Assembly (NCBI GenBank): GCA_964016885.1
Contig: OZ024743.1
Location: 55,118,001 to 55,182,000 of the forward strand
Origin: Eledone cirrhosa
Taxonomy: Eukaryota
DNA: 64,000 bases
Direction: 5' to 3'
Shown here: in pieces, positions 15,251 through 62,929 of the stretch
How positions within the stretch are numbered: the stretch's first letter is position 1
Layout: each line of letters begins with the position of its first letter
Position numbers and translations under genes: made by a program
Notes under the pieces: model-generated
Seen by the model: only the letters and a program-made list of their open reading frames with translations
What the model was told of the DNA's origin: nothing
Databases searched by the model: none

Positions 15251-15471
15251 GAATAAGTGGGCGAAGAAGATATATATAAGCATATATATATGAATATATA
15301 TGTATATATAAAAAAGAAAATTTCGTTCTACATGGCTGAATACAATAAATCTAATCTGAGTTTTTCGAATATTAATAATTGTTTCTACTTTAGGCACAAG
15401 GCCAGCAATTATCCAGTGCATTACTGGTACTTTATTTTATCGACCCCGTAAGGATGAAAGGCAAAATATTA

Positions 15472-16005
15472 ATAATAACATTCGATTCGTTTGCAATTTT
15501 GCAAACAAGCCTCAATCTTTTAGCCATGTCAGTAGAATGAACACATCATTCTTGCTCTTGTGTGGCATGCGAACAGAACTGCAGACACTAATGTTTCTGG
15601 GTATCACCCTTCATCAGTACAGCTCACTGTTCACCTGCCAATCTGTCAGAACTAGTGAAAATATATGCTATTTTCAAAAATACGGACGGTCTGCTGATAT
15701 GAAAATCTGGCTGATCAGTGGATCTGCTAAAATGCAGATCTGACTGGTCAGCCAGCCTGCTAACATGCAAATCAGGCCGATCAGTCACTGTGTATTTTTG
15801 AAAATAGCATATATTTTCACTAGCTCTGACAGTTTGGCAGGTGAACAGTGAGCTGTACTGATGAAGGGTGATACCCAGAAACATTAGTGTCTGCAGTTCT
15901 GTTCGCATGCCAACACAAGAGCAAGAATGAAGTGTTCATTCTACTGACATGGTTATAAAATTGAGGCTTGTTTGCATAATTGCAACCGAATCGAATGTTA
16001 TTATT
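15472..16005. mobile_element. Fold-back element with ~210-bp inverted arms, each carrying a hammerhead motif
   Basis: 15472-15683 is the reverse complement of 15792-16005 (ORF track shows the same peptide on both strands); spacer has three ~32-bp repeats. Confidence 0.85.
15850..15899 (+). ncRNA. Type I hammerhead ribozyme motif (mirror copy on minus strand at 15576-15625)
   Basis: GAGCTGTA-CTGATGA-AGGGTGATACCCA-GAAAC-ATTAGT-GTC-TGCAGTTC; 8-bp stem I including G-U pairs. Confidence 0.8.
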
Positions 16006-16017
16006 AACTCAGATTAC

Positions 16018-16050
<33 letters not shown>

Positions 16051-16051
<1 letters not shown>

Positions 16052-16238
16052 CGAAGGAGGTGTGGTAAGGAACCAGATGAACCATAACGCGCCAGAATAC
16101 TCAATACTTAGTGTAGTAGAGTGGGTTATAGGAACAAGTTTGACCTCGACGGCAGAGCTCAAGCCGTTTCGACGGCTATTTCTCAACTGAAATAACCATC
16201 GAAACGGCTTGAGCTCTGCCGTCGGGGCCAAACATTTT

Positions 16239-16244
<6 letters not shown>
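16051..16244. mobile_element. (TA)n-flanked hairpin element carrying the HHR 3' half (family H1)
   Basis: CGACGGCAGAGCTCAAGCCGTTTCGA / TCGAAACGGCTTGAGCTCTGCCGTCG inverted arms. Confidence 0.8.
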
Positions 16245-16353: not shown

Positions 16354-16878
16354 TTATATTAATAAAAGGAATTCCAACTTTGTCTGATTTACTCGTTTTA
16401 TTTACAATCCTTTAAAATTATAATGGTATTAGAATGAAATAGTATGGTAGAATATTAAACGTTAAGTGTTAATTGTACTTTCATGCTTTCGCAATCTTCA
16501 GGTTCATATTCTGTGGATAGGGTCAAATAGAAGTCGTTAGATATGCTCAACCAACCGTGACGCCTAAACCAATCAGCTTTAGTAATCCAGTGAAACTACA
16601 CACCGATTGGTCGAAATACAGTTTGCAAAATTTCGCATTCTGAAGCCACTTTTCACTGTATATAAAGCACAAAATTTACCCATCTCATTACAGTTGAAAA
16701 TTGCAAATTTGACTGTCACCACAGAATATGAACCTGAAGATTGCGAAAGCATGAAAGTACTTGTTCAATTAACACTTAACATTCTACCATATTATTTCAT
16801 TCTAATACCATTATAATTTTAAAGGATTTTAAATAAAACGAGTAAATCAGACAAAGTTGGAATTCCTTTTATTAATAT
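16354..16878. mobile_element. Inverted-repeat element, ~160-bp arms, with a minimal HHR-like core (CTGAAGA-TTGC-GAAA)
   Basis: 16354-16517 is the reverse complement of 16718-16878; TA-rich flanks. Confidence 0.7.
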
Positions 16879-17325
16879 ATATATATATAAATATCAGGAT
16901 GTAACGAAAGTTCTGTCCGTTTTCATTTTTTAAGGTAAAATTATATTTATAATATGCCAAACTCACTAATGTGTTTCATTTTCTTTCAGATTTTGTCAAA
17001 TTTATCTTTATTGAAGCTGTTGTATAGGCACCATTTTCACTCCATATAAAGAACATATCAAATTTTATTTCAAGCACATAGCAATCTGAGCCACATATTT
17101 TTTTCATAAAACTGAAATAAATTCATAATATTAGTTAGATTCGAGTTACAAGTCGGCATAGTCACATATTTCGCCATCTCCCTTAACTTTTGAAAATCAT
17201 GAAACTTGTGAAACCGGTAAAGTTATAAATTATTGTAAATAAACCTTCTTAAAGAATTGAATTGCATTTTCAACTTCTTTTTCATATATATATATACACG
17301 TGCACGCACATGCACACGCACACAT

Positions 17326-28619: not shown

Positions 28620-28762
28620 TAACAAAGAAAGTGTGGTAAGAGACCAGGTCGACCATAACGCAACCGAGTACTCGATGCTTAGGGTGTAGTACAGTGGGTA
28701 AAACTGGTGACTTAGTTCGGATCTAGCTGTGGAAACGGCCGGAGCTCAGCCATCGGGGTCAT
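28620..28762. mobile_element. Diverged family H1 element
   Basis: GACCATAACGCA...GTACTCGA and GGATCTAGCTGTGGAAACGGCCGGAGCTCAGCCATCGGGGTC. Confidence 0.7.
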
Positions 28763-28764
28763 GA

Positions 28765-28829
<65 letters not shown>

Positions 28830-40300: not shown

Positions 40301-42122
<1,822 letters not shown>

Positions 42123-43268: not shown

Positions 43269-43370
43269 CGGAGATTGTTTTTCATTATTTCGTGGGCCGA
43301 AATGCGAATCTCGATAATTTATGTTTGTATATATATATATATCAGACTGTCTGCCCATATATGACTATAT

Positions 43371-43463
43371 CCCCTGAGGAGACCAGCTAGGTTCCTGCCG
43401 TCCGAATACTGGCGCTTCAGTTCGGATCTAGCTGTTGAAACGGCCTGAGCTCAGTCGTCAGGG
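43371..43463 (+). ncRNA. Complete hammerhead motif of family H1
   Basis: CCC-CTGAGGA-GACCAGCTAG...CTAGCTGTT-GAAAC-GGCCTGAGCTCAGTC-GTC-AGGG. Confidence 0.7.
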
Positions 43464-43471
43464 TCCTGAAT

Positions 43472-43524
<53 letters not shown>

Positions 43525-43525
<1 letters not shown>

Positions 43526-43712
43526 CGAGGGAAAAGTGGTAAGGAACCAGGTGGACCATAACGCACCAAAGTACTCAATACTTAGGGTAGTAGAGTGGGT
43601 AATAGGAGTAAGTAAGACCCCGACGGCTGAGCTCAAGCCGTTTCGACGGCTAATTCTGTACAGAATTAGCCGTCGAAACGGCTTGAGCTCAGCCGTCGGG
43701 GTCTTACTTACT

Positions 43713-43717
<5 letters not shown>
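43525..43717. mobile_element. Family H1 hairpin element with a perfect 116-bp palindrome (43602-43717)
   Basis: Axis TGT|ACA at 43659/43660; (TA)n on both sides. Confidence 0.88.
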
Positions 43718-45547: not shown

Positions 45548-46011
45548 TGCAAAAGTTTTATTTAAAATTGTTGGGTTACAACGAGTAAATATTTTATAAC
45601 TGATATAAAAGCACTCAACAAATTTTGGAGTATTTTACGATATTAAACAAATGGAAACTACATTTATAAAACCATATTTATTTCATTATATATATTTCAG
45701 GGATATCATATTAAAAATATGGTATGCCCTCTTCAGACAAAATACAATATATAAACAGTTTTATAAATAAATTTGACATACCTTAAAAAAATTTACAACT
45801 TCCATTTAAAAAGTTGTTATGGTACCATAACAACTTTTTAAATGGAAGTTGTAAAATTTTTTAAGGTATGTCAGATTTATTTATAAAACTGTTTATATAT
45901 TGTATTTTGTCTGAAGAGGGCATACCATATTTTTAATATGATATCCCTGAAATATATATAATGAAATAAATATGGTTTTATAAATGTAGTTTCCATTTGT
46001 TTAATATCGTA
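45548..46011. mobile_element. Fold-back PLE-type terminus (family H2): 376-bp near-perfect palindrome 45636-46011 plus a longer left arm
   Basis: Axis GGT|ACC at 45823/45824, about 2 mismatches; (TA)n flanks. Confidence 0.88.
45903..45968 (+). ncRNA. Type I hammerhead motif (mirror on minus strand at 45679-45744)
   Basis: TATTTTGT-CTGAAGA-GGGCATACC...ATATCCCT-GAAA-TATATA-TA-ATGAAATA. Confidence 0.7.
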
Positions 46012-49503: not shown

Positions 49504-49557
<54 letters not shown>

Positions 49558-50421
49558 CAAAGATGGTGTGATAAGATAGCAGGTGGACCATAATGCACCA
49601 GAGTACTCGATACTTAGGGTAGTAGGGTAATAGACTGAGCCTCCGCCGTTTCGACAGCTAGAGCTGTACTATAAACAATACTATAAAACAGTAAAGTGCC
49701 ATTACATCAATACAGTTATGTTGAGATATCTTCTTAGTACTTTACTGTGTCCGCTCAAAAAATAACACCACCCCAACCTAGGCACAGTGCCTGTCACTCT
49801 CTCCTCATTCTCCTTTCTTTCTGCCCAATGTTCCTTGCTCTTCACCACCTTTTCTTCACATTTATTGCATTTATAGTCCTGTCCTCTGCTTTTTTATCCA
49901 GCCAGATCTGCCATTCTTTACCATTTTCGGTTTTTTTTTTATTACTTAACTTTGTTTTTATCTTTTTTTATAAATATCTCCACCATTGTATAACTTCTGT
50001 ATGTAAAATATAGTTGACATAATATGTTTATGTATAACAGATATCAAAATAAATTAATGGCTCTTTACAAAATAAAGAAATATCACAACAGTCTTTTGAT
50101 ATTTTAGTGCTAATATACTTTTAAAAAAAGTAGTAAAGTATTATGAAGAAAGTGCAATCACCTTTAACATCAGGCTTCCTACTTGAACAGTTTATACAAT
50201 GATGTGTTTAATGCTGTTTCGATAGAACTGCCAGTTTCTGTTGAAATTAACATCTTCACCGAACTTCGCATTTTTCTTATTCAATATATACTTTGTCATT
50301 GACTGACAAATCACATTTGGAAGAAAATACATGACGTTGAGAGCTTAGATTGAATTATATCATTATTTACCGATTGGTGTGTTGCATATGCAACCCCAAT
50401 CAGTCAAGATATGTACTGCAC

Positions 50422-55500: not shown

Positions 55501-55810
55501 GTAGAAGTTATATTTAATTTGTTGGGATTCCAACAAACTTAAAAGTTTATAACTGATATAGAGCACTCAACAGTATACTGTAGTAAATATTCAATATATT
55601 AATAAATGGAAACTATATTTATAAAACCATAATTATTTTATTATATATATTTCAAGGGTGACCAAGCCAATTTTGGTGCGCTATTTATCAAACAAATTTA
55701 GTATTTAATCTGATGAAAGCGCACCAAGATTGGCTTGGTCGCCCTTGAAATATATATAATACAATAATTATGGTTTTATAAATATAGTTTCCATTTATTA
55801 ATATATTGTA
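55501..55810. mobile_element. Family H2 fold-back element with HHR (plus strand 55702-55766)
   Basis: Arms ~55596-55690 and 55706-55806; CTGATGA-AAGCGCACCAAG...CTTGGTCGCCCTT-GAAA-TATATA-TA. Confidence 0.8.
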
Positions 55811-55958
55811 TATATATGGTATATATATACCAAACAGTGAGTGTGTTCTGTTATTAATTCTGGCAATATTACACAAATATGACCTTCCCCAAGTATAACA
55901 ATATTTGTTTCGACACACGATTTCATATCAAAAACCTCGCAAAAGTATTTCATCGCCG

Positions 55959-56480
<522 letters not shown>

Positions 56481-57132
56481 ATATAACGGTGGATTGGCAG
56501 TATCGGTAGAGAGTCGGACGCCATGCTTTCCAGCATAGTTACGTCCCTTTACGGTCTGAGTTCAAATCCCGCCGAGGTTGACTTTGCCTTTCATCCTTAC
56601 GGGGTCGATAAAATAAAGTACCAGTAATGCACTGGGTAATTGCTGGCCTTGTGCCTAAAGTAGAAACAGTTATATATATATATATATCGAGTAATACTGT
56701 CGCTTGATTCTGAAGAAGCTATCAAGCGATTCCTGTGCTTGAAGCTTTTCTAAGCGGGGAAAGGCTTCCCATTGAGCCACTTCTACTCTCTGAACATCGA
56801 ATACATATACCCCAAAAGTAGCACTGGTCTACATCGTTCCACCCGAAAGCTCATCGGAACCATAGAGACTAATGCATCGGTCCGGGTATCTCAATTATCT
56901 TCCCCCACACGAAGTCGTCTTCTTCACTGATGAACGTATAAGTGCACTATAACCAGTTGGGTTTGAATGTTAATAATACGAACTTAATTGATTATTGAGT
57001 GAATCAAGAACCGACCGAAGCCTTGTCCTTTTTATTCGATAAGCTTCGTCATATATATATCCAGGAAGCTCCAACCGTTAAGGTTGTCTTTTTTTCCGGG
57101 TATGTCAATATTTATTTATAAAACAAATCTGT

Positions 57133-57196
57133 ATTTTATCTGATGAAAGCGCACCATAATTTGCCTTGGTTGCCCTTGAAATATGTATAATAAAAT
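57133..57196 (+). ncRNA. Family H2 hammerhead motif (element ~57100-57312)
   Basis: ATTTTAT-CTGATGA-AAGCGCACC...GGTTGCCCTT-GAAA-TATGTA-TA-ATAAAAT; 7-bp stem I. Confidence 0.72.
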
Positions 57197-57309
57197 TAAT
57201 ATGGTTTTATAAATATAGTTTCCATTTATTAATATATTGTATATTTACTCCACAAAACTGTTGAGTACTTTATATCAGTTATAAAAATGTTTAAATTAAA
57301 TATAACCTC

Positions 57310-61440: not shown

Positions 61441-61664
61441 CCAGAGTAACCAGAGTTAGCTAGGGCATTATAATTATCTCTTGCCCTATATCTCTTGCCC
61501 CATAGTTAGCTAGGGCATTATAATTATCTCTTGCCCTATAGTCTTTATTTACAAATGCACCCTATTAGGTTTAACATGTCTTTCCATGATAATTTTCCTA
61601 AATTTTCATAAATATCCATTCGCTGTTCTTCGGAGTTTTGGCTTGTTCTCTTGTCTTTTTCCTT

Positions 61665-61705
61665 GCTCTGATGAGTCCTAATTAATGGGACGAAACATTG
61701 TCAGC
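61665..61705 (+). ncRNA. Minimal type I hammerhead ribozyme
   Basis: GCT-CTGATGA-GTCC-TAATTAATG-GGAC-GAAAC-ATT-GTC-AGC, followed by AATAAA; canonical core. Confidence 0.85.
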
Positions 61706-62265
61706 TAATAAAGACTTTTGATGTATTAAAGACTTCTTTGTTAATTTTATATAATTTTTCGGCTCTGTTGCAAAAGGAATAAAGTTAGCTAGAATGAAAT
61801 ATACAATACTAGGTGTTTACTGAAGAGAGCGGGACATGATATCCTTACACTTATTTATCCCGAAACATATTTGGATTTTAAAGTTTAAACTTATCCACGG
61901 AACAGGTTTGATTTTGAAATTTAAATTTGTCTAAACACCATGGCCATTTGCCAATACTGTTTGTTTGTGTTGATTTATTATTTTAAATCGATGTAGGCAG
62001 GCTGTTATATCATAATTGTATATTTCATTCTAGCTAACTTTATTCCTTTTGCAATATAAACTAAGATATGTTTGTATCTGTGTTTCATCATATATATTGA
62101 TTTATATTTATTACACGGCTCAGAAATATTCTTTTCTTGGAGCTATTTTCATTGTAAAGGAATGCTTGAGATTTGAACTCAATACACTTAATATATATAT
62201 ATTCAAAATATTAACAAAATATTAATTCAAAATATTAACAAAATAGATATTCTTGTGATCAATTA

Positions 62266-62332
62266 TATTTTATTATACATATTTCAGAGGTACTGAGTTA
62301 AGTTCAACAGTACGTCCTCATCAGATAAAATA
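62266..62332 (-). ncRNA. Type I hammerhead motif (H2-related)
   Basis: Minus strand: TATTTTAT-CTGATGA-GGACGTACTG...CAGTACCTCT-GAAA-TATGTA-TA-ATAAAATA; perfect 8-bp stem I. Confidence 0.8.
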
Positions 62333-62784: not shown

Positions 62785-62841
<57 letters not shown>

Positions 62842-62844
<3 letters not shown>

Positions 62845-62929
62845 AAAATAGTCAAGACCCCGACGGCTGAGCTCCGACCGTTTCGACAGCGTTATGGTCC
62901 ACCTGGTTTCTTAACATACTTTCTTTGTT
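62842..62929. mobile_element. Deleted family H1 element, opposite orientation
   Basis: GACCCCGACGGCTGAGCTC...GTTTCGACAG joined to CGTTATGGTCCACCTGGTTTC. Confidence 0.7.

What the first reader, a model, noticed from the sequence alone, without database searches (positions are those of the whole stretch)
43371..43717. Hairpin mini-elements whose symmetry axis sits in a hammerhead stem II loop (family H1)
Seen: 43371-43463 is a full HHR motif (CTGAGGA-stem II-GAAAC-GGC..GAGCTC..-GTC-(A)GGG). Copies at 16051, 40354 and 43525 have a ~135-nt long arm and a ~60-nt inverted arm, and in all three the axis lies just 5' of GAAAC, i.e. in the stem II loop, so the CTGA half is absent. Variants private to each copy occur in both arms (GGCAGAGCTC at 16 kb; GACAGCTG and GGAACCAG at 40 kb; GGAGTAAG at 43.6 kb). 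All sit in (TA)n; diverged pieces are at 28620, 49556 and 62842. Known: PLEs carry HHRs in pLTRs and often make inverted 5' ends. Inference: the cDNA folds back on the stem II hairpin and self-primes, so ribozyme structure fixes the inversion point. The template spanned the GUC site, so it was uncleaved or religated.
Basis: partly seen in the sequence, partly recalled or inferred. Interest (0 to 1): 0.8.

Follow-up and report, generated by a model that had tools for sequence, protein, structure and literature searches.

The report
Penelope stubs ending inside a ribozyme
These hairpins are short head-to-head insertions of a Penelope-like jumping gene with tens of thousands of copies; about four in five arms stop within nine bases inside its hammerhead ribozyme, a spot that likely marks the start of the element's RNA, so the copies would map how these poorly understood elements insert.

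Summary
The hairpins are real; the proposed mechanism is not supported. They are 5'-truncated, head-to-head insertions of a 3.54-kb Penelope-like element (PLE) with Hydra-clade motifs; one tail 24-mer has 24,908 exact matches.

Numbered from the hammerhead cut site, both outer ends are fixed (+98 and +17/+20) and the centre differs copy by copy. The 'private' variants are subfamily markers. The parent's stem II 5' strand and 38-nt loop are missing from the hairpins, and kilobase copies have the same two ends with unrelated 5' limits. Each arm is therefore likely a separately primed cDNA, not a stem II fold-back.

What is new is a hard stop. Of 98 arms reaching -37, 78 end at -37..-45, none at -46..-78, and 20 run on, in pairs. 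The stop lies on a conserved initiator-like TYAGT (A = -41), and the next base is C 3,256 times versus T 624.

Best reading (0.6): the RNA starts, capped, inside loop II; two cDNAs primed near its 5' end run off and are joined by microhomology. No RNA data were available, and the cap signal's position control is weak.

The parts
43525..43661 (-). Tail arm of the youngest hairpin: RNA-sense on the minus strand, element positions -40 to +97
   Evidence: matches ORF-bearing copies L099, L101, L106 at 98-100%
43658..43717 (+). Short arm of the youngest hairpin, -40 to +17/+20; perfect centre on GTAC (43658-43661), TAT shared with the (TA)n flank
   Evidence: this centre occurs at 347 sites genome-wide
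43344..43479 (+). Solo +17-type arm of an older subfamily that runs through the whole hammerhead; a separate insertion in the same (TA)n tract
43370..43463 (+). Type I hammerhead motif, C3-G8 core at 43374-43380, predicted cut after 43459; decayed
43417..43422 (+). Initiator-like TCAGTT in loop II; A43419 = position -41
   Evidence: conservation; consensus TCAKTY
40354..40548 (.). Hairpin copy: tail arm +98 to -40 (40354-40491), one extra base, short arm -36 to +20
16050..16243 (.). Older hairpin copy: tail arm +98 to -41, short arm from -35; arms differ by post-insertion changes
28621..28766 (.). Two non-overlapping arms: tail arm stops near +21, short arm runs from about -52; cannot be a fold-back of the tail arm
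49556..49670 (-). Tail arm alone, internal deletion, ends at -41 with no inverted arm
62841..62929 (.). Two non-overlapping arms on the other strand: tail arm +98 to about +58, short arm +20 to -29, joined on 2 shared bases

Best explanation
The hairpins are abortive head-to-head insertions of a Hydra-type Penelope-like retrotransposon, each arm likely being a cDNA primed separately from one strand of a cut (TA)n target at one of two fixed RNA sites (+98 and +17), both likely running off a capped RNA 5' end at about -41 inside hammerhead loop II, and then likely joined at short shared bases. Steps shown here: parent element, fixed outer ends, copy-specific centres, hard stop at -37..-45, paired read-through, same architecture at kilobase scale. 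From the literature: a PLE protein nicks and extends both strands and starts at two adjacent internal RNA sites, using uncut RNA (PMC11167929). Inferred: both arms come from one RNA with the trailing enzyme displacing the leading cDNA; the stop is a transcription start; the extra C copies the cap; end joining trims 0-8 nt and adds junk. An RNA that starts at -41 lacks the CUGA half, which would explain why the template is never cut at this GUC. Long arms would come from RNAs that hold upstream sequence (tandem read-through) or from a jump to the RNA's 3' repeat.
For: Parent: 731-aa RT + GIY-YIG frame, 791 homologues, 3,543-bp tandem unit with a 786-aa open frame. Two priming sites: partner arm ends at +20/+22 in 64 of 71 two-armed copies; both sites carry TAT; 20 kilobase-scale loci show the same ends with unrelated 5' limits and arms abutting on a few shared bases. 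One template: arms of the same subfamily in 41 of 43 copies; 1.6 mismatches per 40 nt within against 5.4 between copies. Hard stop: 78 of 98 arms end at -37..-45, 0 at -46..-78, 20 run on; 51 of 61 tail arms and 50 of 54 short arms at risk stop at -33..-47, about 0.06 per nt against 0.002-0.007 elsewhere; exact counts 31,030 to -37 and 8,492 to -45. Set by the template, not by chance: in 8 of 8 read-through insertions where the partner reached the zone it also passed (3e-6 if independent). Single arms without inversion stop there too. TYAGT at -43..-39 is shared by old and young subfamilies whose neighbouring loop letters differ. After -41, C 3,256 against T 624; 19 of 30 and 23 of 30 are not explained by the partner arm. 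One full-length copy starts at -41..-45 with its partner ending at -44 (L383); three copies jump from -38..-42 to the ORF start and copy the 5' end again (L381, L382, L385).
Against: No RNA evidence of a start at -41. The C excess is not shown to be specific to -41: local controls gave p = 0.17 and 0.22, and in the census C followed 3 of 4 unexplained ends at -41 and 7 of 24 elsewhere; in the GTAC subfamily CAAT could be templated by a like stretch in the tail. An initiator match alone is weak (short motif; downstream element 5 of 6). Of 24 ORF-start copies that pass the upstream cut site only 3 stop in the zone and 21 run on (5 of the 21 are near-identical neighbours), so long copies need another RNA class or a strand transfer that is not shown. 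No cap-C was seen in a read-through arm (0 of 30). One copy (L187) has arms of two subfamilies, so one RNA is not the rule without exception. Deletion after insertion could mimic some asymmetric copies. The unselected samples come from the first 23 Mb of one contig.
Confidence: 0.6

Rival explanations
1. Two separately primed cDNAs as above, but they stop at -37..-45 because the reverse transcriptase stalls at an RNA fold or bound protein in loop II; a minority of RNPs are in a permissive state.
For: The stop lies inside a ribozyme; a 4-bp hairpin at -45..-32 is predicted; needs no promoter.
Against: The stop is past the stem II 3' strand, in an AU-rich loop, not at the base of a helix. Zero ends at -46..-78. 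Passing is paired (8 of 8) and 21 of 24 ORF-start copies pass a second time, so any stall must be all-or-none per RNP. Untemplated C and A runs and jumps at -41 fit a template end.
Confidence: 0.15
2. Two primers, and the RNA does end near -41, but the end is made by processing (a nuclease cut, or the YAG at -42..-40 acting as a 3' splice site) and not by transcription initiation.
For: C/T-A-G at -42..-40 follows a U-rich tract in the young subfamilies; PLEs carry introns near the hammerhead (PMC4209133); many arms end at -40.
Against: No common upstream exon follows -40/-41; ends at -40 are mostly explained by pairing at the GTAC/GGAC centre; C excess after -41.
Confidence: 0.12
3. A fixed palindromic master (MITE-like or non-autonomous mini-element) spreads as a unit and its centre is rearranged after insertion.
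For: Both outer ends are fixed; 347 sites share one perfect centre; palindrome centres are unstable; minis that keep the initiator could be transcribed.
Against: Centres are copy-specific among copies with identical arms (6 of 30 share the commonest); some centres hold longer parental sequence (to -102, L128); long ORF-bearing parents exist for the 40-kb and 43.5-kb subfamilies; kilobase copies have the same ends. A minor self-propagating share is not excluded.
Confidence: 0.07
4. One reading: one cDNA folds back on the stem II hairpin and self-primes. A weaker form: snap-back on the 4-bp loop hairpin or on the GAAA-loop hairpin.
For: Arms agree in subfamily (41 of 43) and 3 private variants are in both arms; about 6 of 71 junctions fit the 4-bp hairpin (by eye); self-priming was proposed for PLE head-to-head palindromes (PMC3846280).
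Against: No copy keeps stem II 5' strand plus loop; zero-loop perfect centres; short arm beyond or without the long arm; 24 private variants in one arm only; kilobase arms ignore 37 earlier TAT sites.
Confidence: 0.06

Closest known systems
Inverted-pLTR insertions of EN+ Penelope-like elements, with optional tail (PMC3846280; PMC8557442)
   Same: Head-to-head 5'-truncated copy, tail on one arm only, palindrome at the junction, partial tandems, hammerhead in the pLTR.
   Different: Here about 80% of arms stop in a 9-nt zone inside the hammerhead, giving ~190-bp stubs in tens of thousands; the tail is ~80 nt, not 30-40; the evidence favours two primings over the self-priming proposed there.
Poseidon of Anolis carolinensis in vitro (PMC11167929)
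   Same: Two adjacent internal RT start sites that define the tail, both strands nicked and extended, predicted dimer, uncut RNA used.
   Different: That paper does not, in the parts read, explain inverted copies or map the RNA 5' end; its start sites lack homology to the target, here both carry TAT matching (TA)n; its ORF starts in stem II, here about 190 nt after the cut site.
Hydra clade of C-terminal EN+ PLEs (PMC8557442, section 11)
   Same: RW(R), DKT, CxCX5C, CxxC and CxH, no CCHH, (TA)n target, hammerhead.
   Different: Unit is 3.54 kb against 'generally <3 kb'; core is mostly U3-A8; no tree was built here.
L1 twin priming and cap-derived extra G (as described in PMC11702581)
   Same: Second target strand primes internally; arms joined on microhomology; extra G marks a full-length capped 5' end.
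   Different: L1 arms barely overlap and the second site is variable; here the second site is fixed and both arms copy the same 57 nt to the same end.
Penelope promoter of Drosophila virilis (PMC2377424)
   Same: Internal, TATA-less promoter with initiator inside the pLTR.
   Different: There the start lies upstream of an intron that ends at helix I (PMC4209133), so the RNA holds the whole hammerhead; here the inferred start would split it.
Animal non-LTR retrozymes (bioRxiv 10.64898/2026.07.22.740005)
   Same: Short, non-coding, PLE-derived, dispersed in high copy.
   Different: Retrozymes are tandem units with complete hammerheads; these are inverted and hold half a hammerhead.

Membership tests
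EN+ Penelope-like element | Single ORF with RT and C-terminal GIY-YIG endonuclease | tested here: met
   FDI, YRDD and VIY..YIG motifs in one 731-aa frame; Pfam gave no named family, so the call rests on motifs
EN+ Penelope-like element | pLTR, partial tandems, inverted 5' copy, tail | tested here: met
Hydra clade | RWK motif, DKT in place of DKG | tested here: met
   RWR in natural copies; DKT at residue 125, no DKG; 106 of 120 homologues have DKT
Hydra clade | CxCX5C linker, CxxC and CxH, no CCHH between GIY and YIG | tested here: met
Hydra clade | Insertion into (TA)n | tested here: met
   51 and 49 of 57 copies have (TA)4 or more at the left and right end
Hydra clade | RT phylogeny groups with named Hydra families | not tested
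   no reference sequences fetched; the supplement was searched by term only
Type I hammerhead ribozyme | Core and three stems | tested here: met
   parent folds within 2.1 kcal/mol of its minimum when constrained; cores U3-A8 78, C3-G8 8, U3.G8 7, C3.A8 6 of 99 strings, 2 of them mis-parsed, and the search demanded the other core letters; U3-A8 is known from a PLE (PMC4209133)
Type I hammerhead ribozyme | Self-cleavage | not testable with these tools
   weak hint only: 3 of 30 ORF-start copies begin at -3..+1
MITE | Fixed consensus with terminal inverted repeats and a defined TSD | tested here: not met
   centres vary by copy, ends are asymmetric, parent is a retroelement; TSD unreadable in (TA)n
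Non-LTR retrozyme | Tandem units each with a complete hammerhead | tested here: not met
   hairpins hold only the 3' half
RNA polymerase II initiator | TCAKTY with A at +1, at a real transcription start | tested here: inconclusive
   6 of 6 match in 20 of 99 full copies and 5 of 6 in most others (consensus); no RNA run to test the start

The most novel reading that the evidence does not exclude
This element's promoter fires from inside its own hammerhead. The capped mRNA starts in loop II, so its 5' ribozyme is split and cannot cut, while the complete 3' ribozyme cuts off the only downstream priming sites. A cut mRNA can then be copied only from the two sites near its 5' end, giving two strong-stop-like cDNAs that join into a 190-bp hairpin: the ribozyme acts as a brake that turns about four of five insertions into stubs. 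Full-length and tandem copies arise from uncut RNA or when a stopped cDNA jumps, possibly to the 41-nt repeat (-41..-1) at the RNA's 3' end, as retroviral strong-stop DNA does.
Probability: 0.3. Interest if true: 0.8.

Novelty: new variant of a known kind. Interest (0 to 1): 0.55.

Why it matters
How PLEs make their inverted and tandem insertions, and what their hammerheads do, are stated as open in PMC8557442 and PMC11167929. Here some 25,000 or more natural events give a priming map (two fixed sites) and a sharp template end inside the ribozyme. That yields single-base predictions: capped 5' ends at -41 (and -45), and two run-off cDNAs of about 58 and 139 nt in an in vitro assay. It also warns that such stubs can be mis-filed as MITEs, SINEs or microRNA hairpins.

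Tried and rejected
Rfam scan of the window: no hammerhead at the finding; only simple-repeat microRNA matches and one sub-threshold hammerhead at 61662-61708. Pfam named no domain in the ORF or 3 homologues. No RNA holder listed. Target-site duplications: 6 of 57 copies against 5 of 300 control pairs, nearly all inside degenerate TA, so not readable. Whether the +17 arm is more often the longer: 18 against 9, p = 0.12, with parser errors; kilobase copies go both ways. A cap-derived change at -42 in read-through arms as a strand-transfer footprint: 0 of 30 C-class loci; one of 99 full hammerheads has G there. The script limits for ORF-start copies failed in several loci, so those were read by eye. 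One search's aligner runs across the near-palindromic centre and inflates ends to -45; one search is the better map. The -50 count (3,561) undercounts read-through because of loop variants (23 of 30 loci run on). The second read-laying run (85) did not resolve the base after -41. Literature searches for a PLE start site inside the hammerhead, twin priming or strong-stop transfer in PLEs listed no such paper; subscription papers and unread supplements may hold one. Look-ups of earlier findings by full wording and by sequence were empty.

Full report
Numbering. Positions are on the element's RNA strand, counted from the predicted hammerhead cut (C of GUC = -1, next base = +1). In the window the + strand of the three hairpins reads first as cDNA (tail arm) and then as RNA (short arm). 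The window is G000:C4:55118001-55182000 of a 3.0-Gb genome.

Observation. The three hairpins, the motif at 43371 and the three diverged pieces are present as described. The variants called private are not: all 40 scored candidates of 991 were identical to the 43526 long arm, the four motifs occur in 22, 27, 31 and 4 of 90 loci chosen only by a tail 24-mer, and the 40355 arm matches a full-length unit at 128 of 128 bases. That 24-mer has 24,908 exact matches. Short-read contigs from one study show the same ends and a steep fall in depth upstream of about -45, with loose ends at -41 and -45; they may come from the source sample, so they rule out an assembly artefact but are not independent biology.

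Parent. A loop II probe gave 188 matches, many as inverted pairs 1-8 kb apart. Twenty such loci hold the same two ends and pieces of one ORF. L100 has a 731-aa frame with RT and GIY-YIG motifs and 791 homologues among 8,000 scored candidates. It has DKT, CxCX5C, CxxC, CxH and no CCHH, and natural copies have RWR: the Hydra-clade signature in PMC8557442 (passages and section 11 read; supplement searched by term only). A tandem array has a 3,543-bp period and a 786-aa open frame. The first suitable ATG is at +191.

The ribozyme. The parent hammerhead has a stem II of about 8 pairs closing a 38-nt loop (-32..-69). Its core is mostly U3-A8 (78 of 99 strings), with C3-G8, U3.G8 and C3.A8 forms (two strings mis-parsed; the search required the other core letters). 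U3-A8 is already reported from a PLE (PMC4209133, passages). The parent reaches the hammerhead fold within 2.1 kcal/mol of its minimum; the 43371 copy does not (-21.9 against -35.5). Cleavage is untested.

Against stem II fold-back. Of the first 100 listed tail hits, 94 were read: 71 two-armed, 15 single, 8 running past -100. No two-armed copy has a tail arm reaching the stem II 5' strand, so none keeps the natural hairpin. The partner's outer end is at +20/+22 in 64 of 71. In at least 11 of 71 (by eye: L128, 136, 140, 182, 188, 189, 204, 207, 218, 223, 225) the short arm reaches further 5' than the tail arm, in five of them although the tail arm never reaches the ribozyme; the window copies at 28621 and 62841 are of this kind. 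Later deletion could mimic some of these. It cannot explain the kilobase copies, whose arms have unrelated limits (for example 2.7 kb against 0.5 kb), abut on a few shared bases, and end at +17/+20 after passing 37 TAT sites in 940 nt, nor solo +17 arms such as 43344-43479. Both outer sites carry TAT, which can pair with a (TA)n primer. This matches the two internal start sites and two-strand extension shown in vitro for an anole PLE, where uncut RNA is the substrate (PMC11167929, parts 1-2 of 4 read). Arms share a subfamily in 41 of 43 classifiable copies, and private variants are in one arm 24 times and in both 3 times, which fits one template followed by ageing; L187 is an exception.

The stop. 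In a census of arms reaching -37 on the first 23 Mb of C1 (98 of 100 recovered), 78 end at -37..-45, none at -46..-78 and 20 run on. Genome counts agree: 31,030 to -37 and 8,492 to -45, of which 23 of 30 sampled run on. Passing is a property of the insertion: 15 of the 20 read-through arms belong to 8 insertions in which every arm passes, one has a partner that stopped before the zone, four have no partner found, and none of the 78 stopped arms is joined to a partner starting upstream of -47 (3e-6 under independence). Uninverted copies stop there too (49556 ends at -41). Centres are perfect palindromes on GTAC, AATT or GAATTC, or carry duplicated junk, as expected for end joining of two like ends; the commonest centre has 347 sites.

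Why there. TYAGT at -43..-39 is kept between the 43371-type and young subfamilies while most neighbouring loop letters differ; the Drosophila initiator is TCAKTY with A at +1 (PMC4581360, table 1), and Penelope has an internal initiator promoter (PMC2377424, passages). After -41 the next base is C 3,256 times and T 624 times, neither templated; removing cases explained by the partner leaves roughly 2,060 against 480 (19 of 30 and 23 of 30). An extra G at the 5' junction marks capped full-length RNA in L1 (PMC11702581, passage). This is not yet shown to be specific to -41 (p = 0.17 and 0.22; 3 of 4 against 7 of 24). Three copies jump from -38..-42 to the ORF start and copy the 5' end a second time, and one full-length copy starts in the zone with its partner ending there: behaviour expected at a template end (inference).

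What does not fit simply. Of 30 copies picked by the ORF start, 3 begin inside the tail, 3 at -3..+1, 3 in the zone and 21 further upstream (by eye; 3 of 24 against 51 of 61, p = 1e-9; five are near-identical neighbours). That rejects a constant-chance stall, but it also means long copies come mostly from RNA that holds upstream sequence, or from a seamless jump to the 3' repeat, for which I found no footprint. The three starts at the cut site are only a hint of cleavage in vivo. No RNA run was listed.

Verdict. The architecture is known (PMC3846280, passages, which proposed self-priming; PMC8557442). The fixed stop inside the ribozyme, its pairing and the C excess were not found in the papers listed. 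I put separate priming of the two arms at about 0.85, a transcription start as the cause of the stop at 0.6, and the full brake-and-jump model at 0.3. Other papers: bioRxiv 10.64898/2026.07.22.740005 (part 1 of 5), PMC13282606 (passages, nothing on such hairpins), PMC3088659 (listing only). Earlier scan notes on other genomes report similar stubs and pile-ups; they are unchecked and are not counted as support. The retroviral strong-stop comparison and the role of microhomology end joining are recalled knowledge.

Noticed in passing
window 45636-46011, 55584-55816, 57130-57200, 62270-62324: A second repeat family with a hammerhead-like CTGA..GA / GAAA motif; two copies are head-to-head palindromes (188-nt arms with no spacer; 99-nt arms). 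Likely another PLE family with its axis upstream of the core.
   Followed up: no
window 15469-16007: Third inverted family: 121-nt and 95-nt arms with a small hammerhead-like motif at 15858 (+) and 15617 (-).
   Followed up: no
window 40755-42030, 55959-56476, 16355-16879: Further long inverted repeats (543 nt and 259 nt at 100%, 114 nt at 95%); many flanks of fetched loci hold similar palindromes of other families.
   Followed up: no
window 61662-61708: Canonical-looking minimal type I hammerhead, Rfam 23 bits, below the gathering score; a relative flanks L027.
   Followed up: no
L370 (G000:C1:91471500-91481400): Tandem array of at least four near-identical 3,543-bp units (3,537 matches between two units) of the subfamily of the 40-kb hairpin.
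   Followed up: partly
L118, L261, L282, L283: A lineage with a C3.A8 mismatch in the hammerhead core, beside U3-A8, U3.G8 and C3-G8 lineages: a natural series for cleavage tests.
   Followed up: partly
L112, L113: Copies sharing a deletion whose breakpoint is at -41/-42, joined to a U-rich site far upstream: possibly a non-autonomous derivative born from a jump at the RNA 5' end.
   Followed up: partly
L112 flanks: An 18-20 bp duplication with a few extra TA repeats between it and the tail arm, which could mean repeat addition by slippage at priming; a single case.
   Followed up: partly
L130, L209, L229, L335, L365: Runs of untemplated A (or T on the other strand) right after -41..-44.
   Followed up: partly
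L133, L205, L221: Insertions in (TAGA)n or mixed TA/TAG repeats rather than pure (TA)n.
   Followed up: no
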